A DNA stretch of 64,000 bases from assembly GCA_031431155.1 (NCBI GenBank), contig JANPCW010000204.1:2461-66460 (forward strand), in the 5' to 3' direction. The translations under genes and the position numbers were made by a program. This document shows, piece by piece, positions 22,701 through 56,641 of this stretch; the first letter of the stretch is position 1; each line of letters starts with the position of its first letter. Under the pieces are notes generated by a model. It did not search any database. It saw only the letters and a list, made by a program, of their open reading frames with translations, and was not told where the DNA came from. This DNA comes from Janthinobacterium sp. Lineage in GTDB: Bacteria; Pseudomonadota; Gammaproteobacteria; Burkholderiales; Burkholderiaceae_D.

Positions 22701-25700
22701 AACACCAATTCCTGCATTTCCAAGCCCATCGACAGCAGGCGGTTCAAAAATTGCCGCGTCGGCGGGTACTTGGACTCGGCAATGTTTCCGGTGTTCGGAT
22801 CAACAATGTCTTCCAGGCCCATCTGTTCGAGGAAGTCCACAAACGACACCCCAACCACCTGCCCGCGCTTGATGTCGTCCACCAGTTGGCGGGTGGCCTG
22901 GGTCGCGTACTTGGACTCTAGGTTGTCGGACTCGTTGAACAGGCCGCCGCTGGACGTGTCACGTTGGCCCTTGGTCAAGGCTCCAAGTTGATCCAATCGA
23001 CGCGCGATAGCCGAAAGAAACCGCTTGTGGGCGGGTATGTCGGTTGATGCCAGCTTGTAGTGCGGCTCCGATGCTTGGTTGGTCCGGTGCGACCGGCCCA
23101 TACCCTGGACCGCCTTGTTGGCCCTCCATCCAGGCTGGATCAGGTAGTGCTGGCGCTTGCGCTGGTTTTTCTGCGTGCGGTCGGCGTGGAAGGAGTAGCC
23201 CGTCCCGCCGGCATCGGAGTACACGATGATGCGTTTCTTGTCCGCCATGAAGGCTTCCGCGTCGGCCTTGGCAGCAGAGGCGCCGCGCTGCTCAATCTGA
23301 GCCTTGATGTCGCCGTTCTTGTCTGGCTTGCGCACAACGCGCTGCTTGCGGCCGGTAACTTCGGCCGTGATGTCCGGCCCAAAGTGGTTCAAGATGATTT
23401 CAAGCGGGCCGTCAGGAACACGGATTTCGCGCAAGTCTTTAAGCAACTGCTCGCGCATCTTCACGGCTTCCTTGTTCAGCATCGGCGTGCCATCGGCGTT
23501 CATAACCGGCACGGATATTCTGTTGCCTTCTGGGTCCACGTCATCCTCGTACTGAATGACGGGGAAGGCCTTGGCAACCATTTCCAGCAGTTGATCGCGC
23601 GGCGTCAGGTCCAAGTCCTCCAGGTCGTCAGACTCGTCATCCTCTGCGCGCTTCGCAAGCGCCCGCTCCTGCTGGGCTTCGTTGGTGTTGACCAGTTGCA
23701 GAAGCACCGCGTCGCCTGCTTTCAGGTCTTGCTCGACGGCATCAATGATCGTCGGCATCTGCATGCTGGTGATGATCTGGTTGAAGAACCGTTGCTGGGC
23801 TCCCCAGTAGGCCGACTTCATGTTGGCCTTGGCGCGGTTCGGTTTCTTCTCTCCGTTCGGCCCTGCGGCGTCGGTCGTTGACATAGCCTCGTTCATCCGG
23901 CGAAGCGTGAGTTGCCACGCCTCCGCCAGTTTGTTGTAGATGTCACGCTGGAGAGGGGTCAACTTATGCTCAACCTCGGCGCGCGAGTAGGTCACGCCGT
24001 CGAAGGACAGGCTGCGGGCGATGTATGCGCCCATCTGCTTCATGTCGCGGGCAACAAGCTCCATGGTCGCAAGGCCGCCGGCCACCATCTTCTCGACAAA
24101 GCTATGGACGCTTGGGAACGGCGTGCCCATTCCCCACAACCCAAGGCGGGTCGCAAAGGACAGGTTGGACACTTCCGTCGCGCCGGTCGCAGACACATAG
24201 ACCACGCGGGCCTTGGGCAGTTGCTTTTGAAGCTCCACCACCGCCATAGCCTGGGCGGACGGCTGTGAAGCTCCGCGCTCGCCCTTGATGGCGATGGCGT
24301 TGCCGGCGTTGTGCGCTTCATCGAAGGCGATCACGCCATCGAAGTCTTTGCCGAGCCAATTGACAAGCTGGTCAAGCCTGGATTGTCCTTTGGCGACAAC
24401 GCTCATCCCGTGGATGGCGGCGCCTGTCCTCTGCGATTTAGCCGCGCTGCGCAGCGTCGAATAGGTTGTGAAAATGATGCCGTTTTTCGCGTCGATCTTG
24501 CCTTCGGCGCCGGTCTTGTTCTGATTGAAGATGATCGACTCGTCGCCACCGACTCCTTTGAAGTCGCGCTTTGCGTCGTTCATCAGGCCTTGCTTCTCAG
24601 AAACCCAAACGTGCTTCTTGCGGCCTTGGCGCAGGTTGTCCAGGAGGATGCCGCCGATCATTCTCCCTTTGCCGGTGTTGTGAGTGACGATCAGATCGTC
24701 GGTCAGGTACAGGTGCTGGTCATGCGCAACTGAAATGCACTGGCACTCGCGCTCGCCAATGGGCTCGACCGAGCGAAGGATTCGCTGCGGCGAGTATTTT
24801 TCCCAGGATGCGCGCACTCTGGTCGCCTTGCGCCCAAGCGAGAACGGGTTGACGCCGGACGGAAGTTTCACATAGACAACGTGGCAGTCCCTGTGCGTGG
24901 TTTTCTTAATGGAGCGCGTGGCCACGCCGCCCAGTGATCGGCACAGAAACACCACATCGTCGGCGAGTCGCGCAGAAATGGTGTAGTAAATCGCCGAGCC
25001 GTTGTGTTTGGCGGCATGCCCGTCGGTGTCCATCAGACCGCGCAGGATGGCCAGGCGTGTCTCGACTGAGTTGATCTTGTAGTCGTCGGGGATGAACTTA
25101 TCAGCGGCCCCCGCTCCGGCAAGTCCGAGGTTACGCAGGGCAACCAACAGCGGGTTCGATTGTCGGTCCATACCGGACCACTGGCGCCCGCCGGCTTTAA
25201 CGATGTCGTAGTGGTAATCGCGCGAAACAACCTTGCGAGCCATCAGACCGTGCGGCAGAGCAGCCTCCACCATTTCAACCATCTCTGGCTCGGCGCACAC
25301 CAGTTGCGCAGACGACTGCCGCAGGCATCCATCGCCAAGCAACACCCCCAGCAGCCACGGATTGATGCTCACCGGCTTCTTGGGAAATTGCACCGGAGCC
25401 ACCAAAGGAATGGAATGTAATTTACGAACATCGGTCGCCAGCATGTCGGTGGTCCTCAGCTTCGGAGGCCCGTATGTCACGCCCCTTCCTTGCTTCTGGA
25501 AACTGCGCTCCTGGCGCGTTTGCGTCAGCCACAGGTGCTCGCCGCTGGCCTCCGTGCTGGAGCCATCTGAGAACGTCAGCTTGTAAGTTGAAAGGACGCC
25601 CTGCGGGAATACGCCGGTCACTCGCGTTGGCGTTCCATCGACCGCGATTACCTCGTCGCCTTCGACCAAATCCCCCATGGTGCGCCAACCGGTGGGCGTG

Positions 25701-28700
25701 AGCACCTTGGCGGTCAACGGCTGCGGGCCGGTTCCATCGCCGATGAAGAATCCGCGCCGCGCCTCCACCAAATTGGAATCTCGCGGCAGCAGTTGCTCAT
25801 GGGCCTGCCCGGCATAGACCACGGCCTCAATCTGCGCCAGCGACAGCAGGCCGTCGGTGATGGTCTTTTTCGGCAGGTTCGGCGTGTAGGTTGGGGCCGG
25901 CGGCAGCACCGACGCCATGGCGGCGGATTGCACCAACGCGCCAGGATGCGGCTTGGCCCCTTCGACCTGCAAGCGCTGCGGCGTGTAGCCCTCGAAGATC
26001 GAGTCGGTCAGTTCCCCGGCCTGGGTCGTTTCCGATCCGACATTTACGCCGGTTGCGCCCCCGGCGGTATCAGGTCCACTACCAGCGTCAGGATCGCTCT
26101 GCCCGCCTCCTCCAGGCTTTTCGCTGTCTCGATTTCCGCGCTTTCCAGGTTGCGGTAAACGTCCTCCGGGTCGTCCCCCTCCACCTCCGCCACCGCCGCC
26201 TCCACGGCCTCCGCCCACACCGGGTCGGCCGCCAGGTTCTCCAGCGCCCACTCCAGCAGTTGGACCAGTATCAATCGGCCCGGCTGGACCGTCAGGTGTT
26301 GCTGCGTCATCAGGCGCATCACGTTCTGACTCAGCATCGTCGCGTTCAAGCTGGTCACGGTCGTTGGTTGCGCCTTTTGCATTTGGTCGGTCATTGCGGA
26401 CTCCTTCGAGTAGTGCGATCAGTTCTGTGTAGTCAGAAACTCCGGTTGTGATTGGCTTTGCCCCATCTTTCGGAGGGGCCACTTTGTCAATGACGATCAG
26501 GACGTTGTTGAACGTGGTTCCGTACTTGGCATATCCACTCCCGTCCACCGGGATCACCGCCCGAACGTGGTGCTTGGCGGCGATCCTTGCCCACCATTCA
26601 CGGAAGGCTGGCTTGCCCCACTCCATGCCCTCGCCAGAGATTGCGACAAGGCGCCCTCCATCCACCAGACTGCTGAGCCCTTGCTCAATGTGCTTGGCGC
26701 CGATGGCCGAGTTGTTTTTCAGATTGTTGGCGGCGGCCGAGAACGGTGGGTTCATCACCACCACTGTTGGCTGCGCGCTGTCGGGCAGGAAGTTGCTGAT
26801 GTGCTCGGCGTTTTCGTGATAGACCGTGGCGCCTGGGAACAGGTCTTGCAGCACAGCGGCGCGGCGGCTCGACAGTTCGTTCAAGATCAGCTTGGCGCCA
26901 GCGTTCTTGGCGAACACGGTCAGGCCACCAATGCCGGCCGATGGCTCCAGCATCGTGTCTGCGCTGGTGACGTTGGCGGCCCAGTTGGCGATGAACGCAA
27001 ACGGCGGCACCGTGCTGAACTGCTGGAACTTGTCCATTTCCTCCGTGCGCTTGGTCTGCGTCGGCAGCAGGGCGGTGATCTTCTTGAGCGACTCCACGGC
27101 CAGGATTGCGCTGGCTCGGTCGGTGTTCGGGTTGAACGTGATGCCATTGCGCATCAGGTGCAGGTTGACGCCCGCCTCCATGGCGTCGTAGGCGTCCTTC
27201 GGGGTGTACTTGCCCTCGGCCTGGGTGCCGCCGAAAGCCTCGTCCGCCTCCTCGAACAGCGCCCTCCAGTCGAACGCCAGCCCTTTCTCTAGGATGCCCT
27301 GCACGCGCTTGGCAAGCGTCATCGAGGCGCTTGACTTGGCTCCAAGCTGCGCCGTCAGGCCCTCGTCCTTTGCAAAGCGGATGGCGTATTCCTTGATGCC
27401 ATCACCGAACTGCTCGATCAGGAACTTGAACAACTCCTTGAGAGTCTTCCCGGCATCCTGGAACGCCTTGAGCGCTGCGGAAAAGTGGGGCTTGGCCTCT
27501 TTGTAGGCGTCCTCGTCAAAGCCGCCCGGAAACGAGTTCAACCGCCCCGGCTTGCTGCCGAACAGTTTGGCAAGCCCGGTGAGCGCTTCATTGATGCCGG
27601 TCACGCCAAGCTGCGCCGCCTGACCAATCAGGTTAGCAGCCGTCGGGTTCTCGCGCGCCAGCTTCTCAGGCGTCCACGCTCCCGAGTCGGCTTTGGGTGC
27701 TGGCTCCGGTGGTGCATCCGGGGTTTCCTGCTCCGATTCCGAAAGTTCGGCCGCCGCTTCGTCAAACAGGTTTTCCAGGTCGGTGTCGGTCAGGTCGCCG
27801 GATGGCTCTGCCGGCGCGTCCACTATCGGCGGCGCAAGTTCGGCCTCTTTTTCTTCCGCAAGGCGGTCCAGTTCCTCCTGCTCGGCCCTGGTCTTGGCTT
27901 CGGCTTCTTGGGCGCGTCGCGCAATTTCCTCTTGATAGAAAACTCGCATGTTCTCCGGGTCGGACAGGTCTTTCATGCGACGCTGGCCGTCCTGGATTTC
28001 TTCGGGAAGGTTCTTCTCGAAAGCCTCTCTGCTGACGGTCGGCTTCCCGTCCTTCCATGTGATGGACTTGAACAGAGTGGCGTACAGCTTGTTGAACAGC
28101 GCGCGCTCAGTGCCGGTGGGGTACGGGGTGCCTCGGAAGCCCTTGGCCTTTGTCACGTTGCCTTCGCCCACCCAGGCCGCGTTGACAAGGTAGTCGCTCC
28201 TGAATCCCAGCGTGTCGGCCACCCACGCCTCGCCCGCCCTGGCGAACAACTCCTTGTCGTTGCCCCAGTATTTCTTGCCCAGAATGTCGGCATTTTGTTT
28301 ATAGGCCGTGGATTTGTCGGAGAACCCGCGCGTCATGGCGTAGGTGGCATGATTCACCTTGTCTTTCCTGTCGCCCAGGTGCGTCCAATAGGTTCCACCG
28401 AACAGGAAATCCATGGCGCGCTTTTCTACGGCATCGACCGTGGGCGCCTGTTGTTTCAGGTAGCGCAGGAACATGCCGCGAACGGTGGCCCAGTCGCCCC
28501 CCATCATGTCGTCTATGGCGTGGTGCCACTCATGCGCCAGCGTGCCGTCGCCCTTGGTGTTGGTGACGTTGATGGCCTTCACCGGGCCGTTGGGGCTTGG
28601 GTGGGCTGGGTGGAATGTCGCCGCAAACTTGCCGCGCCCCAGGGCGCCAATAAGGAAGTGCATCTTCCCGCCAAAGCCAATCCCACTCAACGATGCTCCG

Positions 28701-52702: not shown

Positions 52703-55414
52703 TTATGATCCATCGGTGAAGGTTTCAGGCTCAAGTGTACGCTGGTCAATGATGATTGGTCGAACTGGGTCCATGTCGTATATTCTGCTCGCACTATCCA
52801 TGAAGTCCTTTTTGGAACTGAACGGGTAGGTCAGGTATTCTTCGAGGAACCCCTTGTTCAGCGAGTACAGGTTCCCCTCATGGTCCTTGGCCTTGGTCGG
52901 CTTGAAGATGCGAAACGACTGCCCTTCTTCGCGGATTTTCTTCTGATTGGCCGTCTCGCCATCGGTTATGGCGGCCAGATAGTACCGGCCGGCGGCGAAA
53001 TCGGGCTGGAGACGCTGCACCCGGTCATCCTTGGCCGTGGTCCCGTCATGGGTCCAGGACAACTCGACAATCTCGAAGGAATCCTTGATCGCCTCCATCT
53101 TTTCCTCGAAATACTCCAGGTCCGACTGCATGCCGTACTTCTCGTAGCCGACCCGCACCATCTGGACCCCCACCGTGTTGACCCAGCGCTTGCGCAGCAG
53201 GTAAAGGTGCTCCCAGCGCTCCTTGAGCCCCATCTTGTGCCGAAATCCGTCGAGCAGATACTTGTTGCCACCCGAGTCGATCCCGGTTACAACCATGGCC
53301 GTGTTGTCCGAACCCTTCTTTTTCGAGTTCGCGGGGTCCACCGTGATGTAAATGTTCAGCGTCGCAGGGCGGATGTCGATGAAGCGCAGCCATTCCTTCT
53401 TGAACATCGCCTCGTTCCCGGCCGCCGGGTTCAAAAGCTGCTGGCAGGCAATCGTCGCCGGCCCCTGCTTCTGCTTCTTGTCCCCCCAGGCCTCGGGCGT
53501 GAGCAAAACCGGCTTGCCGTCCGCCGTGCCGTCATCGGTCGCCGGGTACAGCCTGACCTTGAGCGCCCCCTTGTCGATGATGTCCTGGTAGGTGTCGCCG
53601 AAGTGATACCGAGTCCCCGAGTGCCAAGCGCGCAGCGACCCATCCTCGCCCCGAGCCCCAAGGTTGTCCGACAACTCCCATGCGTCCGTCGTCTTCTTGA
53701 CCTGTTCGGGCGTGTTCACCGACGCCAGCGTCACCACGTCGTCATAGACCCGCAGCCGGTAGTGGGCGCCGGTAGGCTGCCCGTCCACCAGACCATGGGC
53801 CTCAATCGTCGCCTCCTTGGGGTTGGACTGCCTCTTGACAGTCAGCCCCTTTTCCTCCGACCATGTGGGGCTCTCGCGCTGGGGTTCGGCGTAAAAAATC
53901 TGTGGATAAGTCCTCTGCAACTCCCGGTTCGTCTCCAACTCCAACTTGATCTGGAGCATGAACTTTCGGGCAATCGGCTTGGTGTGCGAGAAAATCCCAA
54001 CCGTGACCTCCGGGTCGATGATGATTTCCTGGATGATCCCGGCGAACGTGATGATGGTGCTGTTGTGCGTGGTGACCATCTGCCGGCCGGCAAGGTACAG
54101 GCCGTCGGGGCGCTCCACCTGGATGCAGGACATTGGCACGGGCGCGATGGGCGTGCAATCCACTATGTAGCGGCGCGGGTGTGGCCGTGCGCCGGGCTTG
54201 GCACGCGCGGCCTTGCGCGGCAACCGGAAAGGGTTGGCTTCCTGATATGCCTGGAACGCCACTTGCCAGACCGGGCCGAACTCGTTTTTGTACTCGTAAA
54301 CCGATGGCTTGAGTCCCAGGCCGGTAGCCAACTCATAAACGTCGTGCACAAGACGCTCGTTGGTATTGGTGAAAGTCGCGGTGCCTCGGGTATTGCAGTG
54401 ACCGTCGGTGTCCATGAGTCCGCGCAACAGTTCCATGCGCTGGCGCGTGCTGCCACGCTGGTAGAAGACCGGGATGTGCTTGTCGCCCAGGATGCGTAGG
54501 CCTCGAAGCAGCGGTCGAAGCCCGTAAACCGTTCGCGTGACGGCATTTGGCTTGCTTGGAGCGGCGTCTGGGCCTACGATGTAGCCTTCTGCCTTGATGG
54601 CGTCGAATATCGCCTGGTCCTCGCCGGTTATGCGGCCATCGGCCGCCGATCCATCGCCAAGCCACGCGCCCAACGTGTACGGCTCGATGGGCAGCAAAGC
54701 ATCGGGCATGTTCAGCGGGGCATTGACCGGGATAGCCAGGCGGTTGTCAGCCGTGTGCTGGTGCGAATGAATATCGCGCGTGCTCAGTGTCACTGCTTCG
54801 CGGTACTGGCGCCCATTGGATGTGCCTGCAATGCGCTTGCGTGTCTTGCGCTCGACATCCCACAGATGGTCGGCGCCGGCCTGCATCACAGTCCCATCGT
54901 CAAAGCTGAGTTCAAAGGCATCGCCTTCCGTGAAGACCTCTGTGCAGGCCACAACGCGGGTCGGCATGCCATCCGGCCCGTACACCCAGTCACCATGCCT
55001 CAATGCTCCATGGGTGGTCCAGCCGCTTGGCGTTGGCACCGGCTCGTCAGTGCGCAGCATTTTGTAGTGTTCCCGAGCCCATAGGTCCAGGTATCCATCC
55101 GGGTCGAGTTCAACCTCGCGGCAGCGCGCGTAAATCCAGGGATGGACGGCATCAGAGCGGTGCAGCAGCTTCGTCAACAGGTAGAACCTGTCGTGGCGGC
55201 CCAGCCACCCCACCGCAATCTCCCCGAAACTGACCTCCAACTCGGCCCAAAGCTCCCGGATGCCAGTAAACGGCGCCGCCAGCAGCAACGGCTTGAACCG
55301 ATCCAGCACCGCCAAACGCTGCGCCAGCGTCAGTTCTGGAGCCTTCGGAGCCTTCTCGACCTCCTTCTTGGGTCGCCCACGCTTCTTCACGGGGGCATCA
55401 ACGTCAGCTTCCAT
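52703..55414 (-). CDS. terL: terminase large subunit (intein-containing)
   Basis: The Walker A region LWAREHYK|STIITFAG is split by an intein. Walker B is LRVYDDV. The nuclease half contains YITVDPA and MVVTGID. Confidence 0.85.
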   Translation of the reverse strand: MEADVDAPVKKRGRPKKEVEKAPKAPELTLAQRLAVLDRFKPLLLAAPFTGIRELWAELEVSFGEIAVGWLGRHDRFYLLTKLLHRSDAVHPWIYARCREVELDPDGYLDLWAREHYKMLRTDEPVPTPSGWTTHGALRHGDWVYGPDGMPTRVVACTEVFTEGDAFELSFDDGTVMQAGADHLWDVERKTRKRIAGTSNGRQYREAVTLSTRDIHSHQHTADNRLAIPVNAPLNMPDALLPIEPYTLGAWLGDGSAADGRITGEDQAIFDAIKAEGYIVGPDAAPSKPNAVTRTVYGLRPLLRGLRILGDKHIPVFYQRGSTRQRMELLRGLMDTDGHCNTRGTATFTNTNERLVHDVYELATGLGLKPSVYEYKNEFGPVWQVAFQAYQEANPFRLPRKAARAKPGARPHPRRYIVDCTPIAPVPMSCIQVERPDGLYLAGRQMVTTHNSTIITFAGIIQEIIIDPEVTVGIFSHTKPIARKFMLQIKLELETNRELQRTYPQIFYAEPQRESPTWSEEKGLTVKRQSNPKEATIEAHGLVDGQPTGAHYRLRVYDDVVTLASVNTPEQVKKTTDAWELSDNLGARGEDGSLRAWHSGTRYHFGDTYQDIIDKGALKVRLYPATDDGTADGKPVLLTPEAWGDKKQKQGPATIACQQLLNPAAGNEAMFKKEWLRFIDIRPATLNIYITVDPANSKKKGSDNTAMVVTGIDSGGNKYLLDGFRHKMGLKERWEHLYLLRKRWVNTVGVQMVRVGYEKYGMQSDLEYFEEKMEAIKDSFEIVELSWTHDGTTAKDDRVQRLQPDFAAGRYYLAAITDGETANQKKIREEGQSFRIFKPTKAKDHEGNLYSLNKGFLEEYLTYPFSSKKDFMDSASRIYDMDPVRPIIIDQRTLEPETFTDGS
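54062..55060 (-). mobile_element. intein (333 aa) with a LAGLIDADG homing endonuclease, in the terL P-loop
   Basis: It spans aa 119-451. It ends in VTTHN followed by a +1 Ser. LAGLIDADG motifs are LGAWLGDGSA and LRGLMDTDGH. Block B is ADHLW and block F is PMSCIQV. Confidence 0.8.
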
Positions 55415-55843: not shown

Positions 55844-56641
55844 TCAGGCCTGTATTTGGCTGGCCACCTGGGGCGCTGGAGCCGCCTTCTTGCCCGTCAA
55901 CTCCTCGATCCTGCGCTCGAACTTGAGCCGCAAGGCCTCCGCCCCAGCCTCGAAGTCCTCAAAGATCACATGCGCCGACCTGCCCAACGGTGGCGGTTCT
56001 GGTGCCACTGCCTGCCCGATGTTGAATGCCGTGCGCTCAATCTCCACCAGCTTCCCGAGGGCGTCCGCCAGCGTCTTGGCTGTCACTGCCCGATTGCCCA
56101 GGTTTGCAGCACGTTTGACCATCAACATAATGTCCCGTTTTTCGTCCATTCCCATGGGCTCCCCGTCAACTGGGTCAGCCGTCAGAAGGGCGTAGGCTCG
56201 TTCAAATACGTCCCGATTGAGGGTGATGGCCTCTAGCTCCTCAAAGAGCGCCTGCACGATTCCTAGTGCCTTTCCGGCATGCTGCCTATGCCCTCGGATC
56301 ACTTCGGCGATGGCTCGGGCGCTGGCCTCGACTACCTCGGCCTCCTTGGCCGGTGTGACCATTCCTTTGCCTTTTCTGACATTATTGGCAACATGCTCGG
56401 TCAGAAGTACCCTAGCCCGCTCCTCAACTCGTTCGCGCAGGTTGCGAGTCCAGCCGTAGCGCTTGGCTCGGTTCAGGATCGCGCTATGGGTCAGGTTGTG
56501 CTGCGCCGCTAGGTGTCTCAGGGTCTTGATGCCTGCCCTGTAGTCCGCTTCGATGGTGTCCCAATCCAGCGGCGCTGTGGGCCTAGCCTTGCGTGGGCGC
56601 GGTTGTTCTGGGGTTTTGGCCTTATGCAATGTTTTGGGCAT
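55844..56641 (-). CDS. terS: terminase small subunit
   Basis: The N-terminal HTH is IEADYRAGIKTLRHLAAQHNLTHSAILNRAKRYGW. It is the first gene of the late operon, upstream of terL. Confidence 0.7.
   Translation of the reverse strand: MPKTLHKAKTPEQPRPRKARPTAPLDWDTIEADYRAGIKTLRHLAAQHNLTHSAILNRAKRYGWTRNLRERVEERARVLLTEHVANNVRKGKGMVTPAKEAEVVEASARAIAEVIRGHRQHAGKALGIVQALFEELEAITLNRDVFERAYALLTADPVDGEPMGMDEKRDIMLMVKRAANLGNRAVTAKTLADALGKLVEIERTAFNIGQAVAPEPPPLGRSAHVIFEDFEAGAEALRLKFERRIEELTGKKAAPAPQVASQIQA

What the first reader, a model, noticed from the sequence alone, without database searches (positions are those of the whole stretch)
54062..55060. Second, paralogous class-3-like intein in the terminase large-subunit P-loop
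The 333-aa insert lies between LWAREHYK and STIITFAG. It starts with Met (MLRTDEPVPTPSGW) and ends in TTHN followed by a +1 Ser. It carries ADHLW (block B), PMSCIQV (block F Cys) and the LAGLIDADG motifs LGAWLGDGSA and LRGLMDTDGH.

It aligns closely with the helicase intein. The LRGLMDTDGH motif is identical, and VPTPSGWTTHGALRHGDWVYGPDGMPTRV compares with VLTPTGWRTMGDLVEGDEVIAVDGTPTRV.

One intein lineage therefore appears to occupy two unrelated ATPase P-loops in the same genome. That implies ectopic transposition of an intein between genes, which is rarely documented.
Basis: partly seen in the sequence, partly recalled or inferred. Interest (0 to 1): 0.6.

Follow-up and report, generated by a model that had tools for sequence, protein, structure and literature searches.

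The report
Class 3 intein in phage terminase
A self-splicing, mobile protein insert (a class 3 intein with its own homing endonuclease) interrupts the ATP-binding loop of a phage DNA-packaging enzyme; it is real but an ordinary member of a known family, and it is not a recent copy of the other intein in the same phage.

Summary
Window 54062-55060 (minus strand) is a 333-codon in-frame insert in terL. Intein-less homologues read LDLWAREHYK-STIITFAG without interruption, so the boundaries are exact.

The insert has every class 3 sequence hallmark. Residue 1 is a non-nucleophilic Met, the Trp67/Cys312/Thr331 triplet is present, it ends in His-Asn and the next residue is Ser. It also has two LAGLIDADG motifs. 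The predicted fold is confident (pLDDT 94) and matches PI-SceI and solved class 3 DnaB inteins.

The terL and helicase inteins are homologous (31% identity, E 6e-39). Each is much closer to same-site inteins in other genomes: up to 86% for terL, with 108 same-site alleles, and 54% for strawberry-notch helicases.

A maximum-likelihood tree puts the two on opposite sides of a 100/95 split. Forcing them together costs 322 log-likelihood units (AU p = 3e-39). Their target DNAs are unrelated (15 of 48 bases) and there is no gene-conversion tract.

Class 3 inteins in terminase and SNF2-type P-loops, and switching between host genes, are already published. The scan has also noted this terL allele in other genomes. 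This is a new member of a known kind, of low interest.

The parts
52703..55414 (-). terL precursor gene (903 aa: N-extein, intein, C-extein)
   Evidence: Single open frame. The C-extein matches phrog_38, terminase large subunit, at E 3.9e-40. terS and the portal gene flank it.
55061..55414 (-). N-extein (118 aa as called), ending in LDLWAREHYK. The Lys is the Walker-A-like lysine. The true start codon may lie about 30 codons downstream.
   Evidence: Intein-less homologues have 85-106 aa before the junction. R, E, Y, K, S and T of the motif are invariant in 27 homologues.
54062..55060 (-). Class 3 intein, 333 aa (P0001)
   Evidence: It is absent from the closest TerL exteins.
54725..55060 (-). 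N-terminal splicing (HINT) lobe, residues 1-112. It holds block B His65 and Trp67 (codon 54860-54862).
   Evidence: Aligns to the solved class 3 DnaB inteins 6rix and 6bs8 over residues 6-74. His65 and Trp67 are invariant in 109 of 109 same-site inteins. The AF2 model shows strands here.
54185..54703 (-). LAGLIDADG homing-endonuclease domain, residues about 120-292. Motif 1 is LGAWLGDGS (54647-54673) and motif 2 is LRGLMDTDGH (54398-54427).
   Evidence: Pfam LAGLIDADG_3, E 6.6e-8. Asp136 and Asp219 are invariant in 109 of 109. Foldseek matches PI-SceI (TM 0.78) and I-DmoI.
54062..54175 (-). C-terminal splicing lobe, residues 296-333. It holds block F Cys312 (codon 54125-54127) and block G Thr331-His332-Asn333 (54062-54070).
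   Evidence: Aligns to 6rix residues 112-145. Cys312, Thr331 and Asn333 are invariant in 109 of 109.
52703..54061 (-). C-extein (452 aa plus stop codon), beginning with the +1 Ser of STIITFAG. It holds the remainder of the ATPase domain and the nuclease domain.
   Evidence: There is a weak Terminase_6C match in homologues.
24677..25726 (-). Comparator: the second class 3 intein (350 aa, P0002), in the strawberry-notch helicase P-loop of the polyvalent protein. The junction is GDGTG|...THN|TGKGR.
   Evidence: An intein-less orthologue reads GDGTG-T-GKGRE without interruption.
55844..56641 (-). terS (small terminase subunit), gene context
   Evidence: phrog_1206, E 2.6e-41.

Best explanation
The insert is a full-length class 3 intein carrying a LAGLIDADG homing endonuclease. 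It sits between the Lys and Ser of the Walker-A-like motif (AREHYK|ST) of the large terminase of a complete phage genome of about 67.45 kb.

**Inferred mechanism**
1. terL is translated as a 903-aa precursor with a split ATP-binding loop.
2. Block F Cys312 attacks the Lys(-1)-Met1 peptide bond, helped by block B Trp67 and His65.
3. The N-extein is passed to the +1 Ser.
4. Asn333 cyclises and releases the intein.
5. An acyl shift restores LDLWAREHYK-STIITFAG, giving a working terminase of about 570 aa.

**Spread at the DNA level**
- The endonuclease cuts intein-less terL alleles at this site during co-infection.
- Repair then copies the intein in (homing).

**Origin**
- This phage obtained its terL intein from the pool of same-site terL inteins.
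- That acquisition was independent of the class 3 intein in its helicase, which belongs to a different, distantly related clade.
For: **Shown: it is an insertion with exact boundaries**
- The insert is in frame, and intein-less alleles confirm the boundaries.

**Shown: class 3 sequence signature**
- Residue 1 is Met. Across 109 same-site inteins, residue 1 is A49, M35, L15, D5, G3, S1.
- Trp67, Cys312, Thr331, His65, Asn333 and both LAGLIDADG Asp residues are invariant in 109 of 109. The +1 residue is Ser.

**Shown: fold and solved relatives**
- The closest solved sequences are the class 3 DnaB inteins 6rix, 6riy and 6bs8 (E about 1e-21).
- The AF2 model has pLDDT 94.1.
- Foldseek matches PI-SceI at TM 0.78 and the class 3 DnaB inteins at TM 0.85, normalised to the target.

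**Shown: signs of mobility**
- The nearest extein (P0374, 79-80% identical) lacks the intein.
- A 193-row extein tree needs at least 8 gains or losses.
- Among 47 IMG/VR terL relatives, an intein match was found in only 1; most of the loci include enough upstream DNA to show one.
- The intein is more conserved than its extein in the nearest carriers: 86 vs 72%, 80 vs 48%, 78 vs 58%.

**Shown: independence from the helicase intein**
- Trees and the AU test separate the two.
- The target sites are dissimilar.
- There is no conversion tract.
- A related phage lacks both inteins.

**Shown: genome**
- The contig ends overlap by 138 bp, so the phage genome is complete.

**Inferred**
- The chemistry is taken from the class 3 prototype (PMC2807308).
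- Splicing and nuclease activity are inferred from residue conservation.
Against: - No biochemical evidence exists here that this intein splices or that its nuclease cuts.
- The assignment of AREHYKST as the Walker A loop rests on three things: motif pattern, invariance, and a tblastn alignment that runs through both junctions to the Cjw1 TerL K|T site.
- The family has no Pfam or PDB sequence match. The AF2 model of an intein-less homologue was too poor (pLDDT 58.5) to confirm the loop structurally.
- GC3 of the intein (74%) is lower than that of the C-extein (82%), but the helicase gene shows similar spread. Composition therefore says little about how recent the acquisition was.
- The tree samples only database hits to the two queries and is unrooted.
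Confidence: 0.87

Rival explanations
1. One reading: one intein copied itself ectopically from one P-loop gene to the other within this phage genome or its recent ancestors, so the two are recent paralogues.
For: Full-length homology at 31% identity, E 6e-39. Both are class 3, both lie in P-loops, and both carry the exact LRGLMDTDGH motif.
Against: - The two lie in distant clades. Holding them together is rejected: the log-likelihood falls by 322, AU p = 3e-39. They were joined in 0 of 200 bootstrap trees.
- Each has far closer same-site relatives elsewhere: 86% and 54%.
- The shared nonamer occurs in 102 of 393 family members.
- The target DNAs share 15 of 48 bases.
- The two intein DNAs share only 24-28 nt patches.
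Confidence: 0.01
2. The insert is a decaying or splicing-dead intein relic, so this terL copy is non-functional.
For: No experimental data are available. The first residue is Met rather than the more common Ala.
Against: - All splicing and nuclease residues are intact and invariant across 109 same-site alleles.
- The frame is uninterrupted.
- This is the only terL found in the window, in what looks like a complete phage genome.
- Met1 occurs in 35 of 109 alleles.
Confidence: 0.05
3. Besides being selfish, the intein acts as a conditional switch. For example, redox-sensitive splicing through Cys312 could gate terminase maturation and so DNA packaging. This is not exclusive of the best explanation.
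For: - The closest solved relative is the M. smegmatis DnaBi1 class 3 intein (6bs8). Its splicing is reported as stress-responsive (PMC6195587).
- P-loop retention of inteins has been argued to be functional (PMC4760082).
Against: - Nothing in the sequence is specific to regulation.
- The sporadic distribution fits a purely selfish element: an intein match was found in only 1 of 47 IMG/VR relatives, and the extein tree needs at least 8 gains or losses.
Confidence: 0.08

Closest known systems
Mycobacteriophage TerL1-a P-loop class 3 inteins, for example Cjw1 gp8 (cluster E) and Omega gp11 (Kelley et al. 2016, PMC5050341)
   Same: - Class 3 WCT intein with a LAGLIDADG nuclease.
- Inserted between the Walker A Lys and the following Ser/Thr of a large terminase (Cjw1: ARKNGK|A...THN|T).
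- 36.5-37% identical, and on the same half of the tree.
   Different: - The terminase family differs: phrog_38-like with no Pfam hit, against Terminase_1.
- The Walker A is deviant (HYK rather than GK).
- The +1 residue is Ser rather than Thr.
- The named carriers of relatives include Pseudomethylobacillus, Devosia and Telluria rather than actinobacteria.
Same-site inteins in uncultured terL homologues (P0005-P0123 and others), including Pseudomethylobacillus aquaticus ED236_00440
   Same: Identical junction LDLWAREHYK|...THN|STIITF, 45-86% identity, and all catalytic residues shared.
   Different: Nothing essential. This is the same allele family.
Mycobacteriophage Bethlehem DnaB intein, the class 3 prototype (Tori et al. 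2010, PMC2807308)
   Same: Non-nucleophilic residue 1, the WCT triplet, a +1 Ser/Thr, and a host that is a P-loop ATPase. That paper already lists SNF2 and phage terminase hosts.
   Different: Different host gene. It was not compared directly here, because the Bethlehem DnaB-like gene annotated in the stretch I fetched has no room for an intein.
M. chimaera DnaB-1 and M. smegmatis DnaBi1 class 3 mini-inteins (PDB 6rix, 6riy, 6bs8)
   Same: The splicing lobes align at E about 1e-21 and TM 0.85. This includes the HxW motif, the block F Cys and the THN terminus.
   Different: These are mini-inteins without a nuclease domain, and they sit in bacterial DnaB.
The co-resident helicase intein (window 24677-25726) and its 'AQPL' clade in strawberry-notch, SNF2, PhoH and methylase-helicase proteins
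   Same: Class 3 with a LAGLIDADG nuclease, a P-loop location, and the same overall architecture.
   Different: - Only 31% identical and on the opposite side of a 100/95 split.
- Inserted at G|TGK rather than K|S.
- The homing site is unrelated.
PI-SceI (yeast VMA1 intein, PDB 1vde, 1ef0, 1lws)
   Same: The same two-domain HINT plus LAGLIDADG architecture (TM 0.78-0.80).
   Different: Class 1 (Cys1), 16-17% identity, and it has an extra DNA-recognition region.

Membership tests
Intein (HINT-domain protein-splicing element) | In-frame insertion that is precisely absent from orthologous host proteins | tested here: met
   About 100 of the 120 closest intein-less TerL homologues read LDLW[AS]REHYKS[ST] without interruption. 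Removing 333 aa restores that sequence.
Intein (HINT-domain protein-splicing element) | C-terminal His-Asn followed by a Ser, Thr or Cys at +1 | tested here: met
   The insert ends in TTHN, followed by S. Asn333 is invariant in 109 of 109 and His332 in 108 of 109.
Intein (HINT-domain protein-splicing element) | HINT fold formed by the N- and C-terminal lobes | tested here: met
   AF2 pLDDT 94.1. Foldseek matches PI-SceI at E 3e-20 and class 3 DnaB inteins at TM 0.85.
Intein (HINT-domain protein-splicing element) | Autocatalytic splicing | not testable with these tools
   Needs expression and protein analysis.
Class 3 inteins (Tori et al. 2010) | No Cys, Ser or Thr nucleophile at intein residue 1 | tested here: met
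   Residue 1 is Met. It is non-nucleophilic in 108 of 109 same-site alleles.
Class 3 inteins (Tori et al. 2010) | WCT triplet: Trp at B:12, Cys at F:4, Thr at G:5 | tested here: met
   Trp67 lies two residues after His65, Cys312 lies in MSCIQV, and Thr331 precedes His-Asn. All three are invariant in 109 of 109, and they align with the same residues of 6rix.
Class 3 inteins (Tori et al. 2010) | [quoted passage not shown] | tested here: met
   The +1 residue is Ser.
Class 3 inteins (Tori et al. 2010) | Obligate block F Cys and a block F branched intermediate | not testable with these tools
   Needs C312A or C312S mutants and thiol-lability assays.
LAGLIDADG homing endonuclease (double-motif, intein-borne) | Two LAGLIDADG motifs, each with its catalytic acidic residue | tested here: met
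   The motifs are LGAWLGDGS and LRGLMDTDGH. Asp136 and Asp219 are invariant in 109 of 109. Pfam LAGLIDADG_3 matches at E 6.6e-8.
LAGLIDADG homing endonuclease (double-motif, intein-borne) | Sporadic distribution that is decoupled from host-gene phylogeny | tested here: met
   At least 8 gains or losses on the extein tree. The nearest extein lacks the intein. The intein is more conserved than the extein in the nearest carriers.
LAGLIDADG homing endonuclease (double-motif, intein-borne) | Cleavage of the intein-less allele | not testable with these tools
   Needs a nuclease assay.
Terminase large subunit, with the insertion in Walker A (P-loop) | The host protein is TerL | tested here: met
   phrog_38 matches the C-extein at E 3.9e-40 and an intein-less homologue at E 1.7e-45. 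The gene order is terS, terL, portal.
Terminase large subunit, with the insertion in Walker A (P-loop) | The insertion point is the Walker A Lys|Ser/Thr junction | tested here: inconclusive
   The R-x-x-x-K-S-T motif is invariant in 27 homologues, and a YDDVV motif that could be Walker B lies about 105 aa downstream. A tblastn alignment to Cjw1 TerL runs through both junctions to its ARKNGK|T site. Structural confirmation failed: AF2 pLDDT was 58.5, and there is no Pfam or PDB sequence hit.
   They lie in separate clades across a 100/95 split. The AU test gives p = 3e-39. They were joined in 0 of 200 bootstrap trees.

The most novel reading that the evidence does not exclude
The terL intein may be more than a selfish passenger. 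It could be a conditional post-translational gate on DNA packaging, with splicing through Cys312 responding to redox state or stress. This is what is reported for its closest solved relative, the M. smegmatis DnaBi1 class 3 intein. Terminase would then mature only under permissive conditions. A weaker variant is that the deep split between the TerL/Cas4/DnaB-type clade and the 'AQPL'-type clade records a switch of host gene that took place in phages carrying both target genes.
Probability: 0.08. Interest if true: 0.5.

Novelty: new member of a known kind. Interest (0 to 1): 0.2.

Why it matters
The main value is correct annotation.
- This terL should be read as a gene for a terminase of about 570 aa plus a 333-aa intein, not as a 903-aa enzyme.
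- The phage carries two independently acquired class 3 inteins.

The finding extends the documented range of class 3 P-loop terminase inteins from actinobacteriophages to a Pfam-unassigned terminase family. That family is common in metagenomes, with more than 100 same-site alleles.

The alleles show a clean homing signature, because the intein is more conserved than its extein. They could serve as material for studying intein spread in uncultured phages.

The finding does not provide a case of within-genome intein transposition.

Tried and rejected
- **Recent ectopic transposition.** Tested with FastTree on 393 inteins and IQ-TREE on 76 inteins plus an AU test. Rejected.
- **Gene conversion between the two inteins.** This could have explained the identical LRGLMDTDGH motif. 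blastn finds only 24-28 nt patches at 87-89% identity. The nonamer is family consensus, and the helicase intein's relatives differ from it by one or two residues.
- **Shared homing-site DNA.** The two sites share 15 of 48 bases, about the chance level.
- **Co-conversion tracts in the exteins next to the intein.** At the protein level there is no excess similarity near the junction in carriers of the closest inteins.
- **Composition as a sign of recent import.** Inconclusive.
- **Structural confirmation of the P-loop.** I folded an intein-less homologue. The model was too poor to search with (pLDDT 58.5). A profile search of PDB sequences found nothing. Pfam gave only a sub-threshold Terminase_6C match.
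- **Bethlehem DnaB intein as a direct reference.** In the stretch I fetched (38-48 kb of NC_009878), the gene annotated as DnaB-like (gp61) is only 273 aa, too short to hold the intein. I did not use it.
- **Co-occurrence in related phages.** Only 1 of 5 long related viral contigs has the helicase gene. That one lacks both inteins. The sample is too small for statistics.
Full report
**Observation**

The minus-strand ORF 52703-55414 encodes 903 aa. It begins MLRTDEPVPTPSGW and ends TTHN, with LWAREHYK upstream and STIITFAG downstream.

The C-extein matches PHROG 38, terminase large subunit, at E 3.9e-40. The gene lies between a small-terminase gene (55844-56641) and the portal, head-closure and major-capsid genes. 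The contig is 67,590 bp and its first and last 138 bp are identical, so this is a closed phage genome of about 67.45 kb that was binned into a MAG.

**Boundaries**

A search with the C-extein alone found thousands of TerL homologues. The best 120 are mostly 537-565 aa and 70-80% identical. In about 100 of these 120 the motif reads LDLW[AS]REHYKS[ST] without interruption, and the commonest form is LDLWAREHYKSTIITFAGI. Removing exactly 333 residues therefore restores the uninterrupted host sequence.

**What the insert is**

- Pfam finds a LAGLIDADG_3 domain.
- The closest solved sequences are the class 3 DnaB inteins of M. chimaera (6rix, 6riy) and M. smegmatis (6bs8), at E about 1e-21. The alignments cover both splicing lobes and superpose His-x-Trp, the block F Cys and Thr-His-Asn.
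- An AlphaFold2 model built on 25 same-clade inteins has mean pLDDT 94.1.
- Foldseek matches the whole model to PI-SceI (TM 0.78-0.80, E 3e-20). It matches the splicing domain to the class 3 DnaB inteins (TM 0.85 by target) and the middle domain to I-DmoI.

The class 3 definition is set out in PMC2807308 and restated in PMC5050341. It requires no nucleophile at residue 1, a Trp(B:12)-Cys(F:4)-Thr(G:5) triplet and a Ser or Thr at +1. All of these are met: Met1, Trp67, Cys312, Thr331 and Ser+1.

Across 109 inteins at this same terL site, Trp67, Cys312, Thr331, His65, Asn333 and both LAGLIDADG aspartates (Asp136, Asp219) are invariant. Residue 1 is A, M, L, D or G in 108 of 109. This conservation is the basis for inferring that both splicing and nuclease activities are maintained. 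Neither activity was or could be tested here.

**Is the site the P-loop?**

- The motif R-E-x-Y-K-S-T is invariant in 27 intein-less homologues. A YDDVV motif that could be Walker B follows about 105 residues later.
- The tblastn alignment to the mycobacteriophage Cjw1 terminase runs through both junctions, covering query residues 63-466 against an intein at 119-451. Cjw1's intein sits at ARKNGK|...THN|T. Kelley et al. call this the classic Lys|Thr P-loop site, TerL1-a (PMC5050341).
- Structural confirmation failed. The family has no Pfam hit and no PDB sequence relative. The model of an intein-less homologue was poor, at pLDDT 58.5.

I therefore rate the P-loop assignment as likely but not proven.

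**Mobility**

- *Same-site alleles.* Searching long proteins with the intein alone found 3,333 hits. The top ones are terL-sized proteins with the identical junction at 45-86% identity.
- *Family size.* An exhaustive scan of 1.84 billion cluster representatives found 17,621 relatives at E <= 1e-3 and 4,107 at E <= 1e-30.
- *Extein tree.* On a 193-row extein tree, the window's TerL is sister (100*) to an intein-less protein (P0374, 79-80% identical). Intein presence needs at least 8 changes.
- *Intein against extein identity.* In the carriers of the closest inteins, the intein is more conserved than the extein: 86 vs 72%, 80 vs 48%, 78 vs 58%.
- *IMG/VR relatives.* An intein match was found in only 1 of 47 terL relatives. 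Most of these loci include 2.5 kb of DNA upstream of the C-extein match, where an intein would lie.

This is the standard signature of horizontal spread by homing.

**Relation to the helicase intein**

The second intein (24677-25726, 350 aa) lies in the AAA_34/strawberry-notch P-loop of the 5,243-aa polyvalent protein. The two are homologous over their full length at 31% identity, E 6e-39.

The helicase intein's best single-copy relatives (50-54%) are in strawberry-notch proteins. After those come inteins at 43-47% in SNF2, PhoH, methylase-helicase, FtsH-like and other P-loop proteins, nearly all beginning AQPL.

Tree results:
- A FastTree of 393 inteins places each window intein with its same-host group.
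- A careful IQ-TREE (LG+C20+F+G4 PMSF, 76 rows, 350 columns) puts the terL intein in an 18-row same-site clade (97/87). That clade lies in a half of the tree that also holds the Cjw1 and Omega TerL inteins, other terminase families, a DnaB intein and Cas4/PD-(D/E)XK exonuclease inteins.
- The same tree puts the helicase intein in a 13-row strawberry-notch clade (100/97), in the other half.
- The halves are separated by branches with 100/95 support, and the patristic distance between the two inteins is 3.06.
- The two were joined in 0 of 200 bootstrap trees. The AU test rejects holding them together: the log-likelihood falls by 322, p = 3e-39.

Other evidence points the same way:
- The terL intein is closer to the Streptomyces phage Frankenweenie Cas4 intein (37.6%) and to the mycobacteriophage TerL inteins (36.5-37%) than to its genome-mate.
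- Extrapolating the bit-score to E-value relation, the helicase intein's 106 bits corresponds to E of about 1e-25. It would therefore rank behind more than 4,000 cluster representatives.
- At the DNA level the two inteins share only 24-28 nt patches at the two LAGLIDADG motifs.
- The 48 nt around the two insertion sites match at 15 positions.
- A related viral contig carries intein-less versions of both genes. This confirms both junctions and shows the ancestral state without either intein.

The two are independent acquisitions from two long-separated class 3 clades.

**Comparison with what is known**

- Kelley et al. 2016 catalogued TerL P-loop inteins and proposed shared ancestry of class 3 inteins across RecB, TerL and DnaB (PMC5050341).
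- Gosselin et al. 2025 documented switching of host gene from TerL to Cas4 with an AU test (bioRxiv 10.1101/2025.01.02.630785).
- Novikova et al. described the P-loop as a general intein hot spot (PMC4760082).
- No cultured phage in GenBank has a relative above 60% identity to either intein.
- Metagenomes hold over 100 same-site alleles, and earlier notes of this scan recorded the same AREHYK|...|STIITF allele in other genomes.

**Verdict**

The class 3 intein reading is supported. The intragenomic transposition reading is refuted. This is a new member of a known kind, of low interest.

Noticed in passing
window 24677-25726 (-), with flanks: The helicase intein sits at GDGTG|TGKGR. That is five residues upstream of the GKGR|T site used by all 12 of its nearest strawberry-notch relatives. 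Here the residue after GKGR is Met, so no nucleophile is available at the usual site. An intein-less orthologue of the giant protein (IMGVR_UViG_3300046660_000364) reads GDGTG-T-GKGRE without interruption.
   Followed up: partly
whole contig G000:C204 (window = 2461-66460 of 67,590): The first and last 138 bp of the contig are identical. The contig is therefore a closed or terminally redundant complete phage genome of about 67.45 kb that was binned into a MAG, not a prophage fragment.
   Followed up: yes
database proteins (no window coordinates): A very promiscuous class 3 clade starts AQPLDAKVLT. Its members occupy strawberry-notch, SNF2, PhoH (two sites), methylase-helicase, FtsH-like AAA, portal and terminase proteins at 43-54% mutual identity. 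This suggests frequent switching between P-loop hosts on a large scale.
   Followed up: partly
protein P0244: A free-standing 349-aa ORF is 57% identical to the terL intein over its whole length. It has essentially no exteins and ends in His-Asp instead of His-Asn. It may be a stranded or domesticated intein.
   Followed up: no
window 55320-55414 (-): The called terL start gives a 118-aa N-extein, but the intein-less homologues I checked have 85-106 aa before the junction. The first 30 or so codons (a Lys/Pro-rich stretch) may not be translated. That would widen the terS-terL gap further.
   Followed up: no
window 52703-54061 and 55061-55414 (-): This terminase family has thousands of metagenomic members but no Pfam-A match above threshold and no PDB sequence relative. 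Its Walker A is deviant (HYKST, with no Gly before the Lys). AlphaFold2 with a shallow alignment gave only pLDDT 58.
   Followed up: partly
proteins P0012, P0024, P0043 and others: Many longer proteins among the hits to the terL intein (about 1,200-1,450 aa) match it in two stretches, so they probably carry two related inteins in one protein. Pfam marks one of them, P0024, as a terminase.
   Followed up: no
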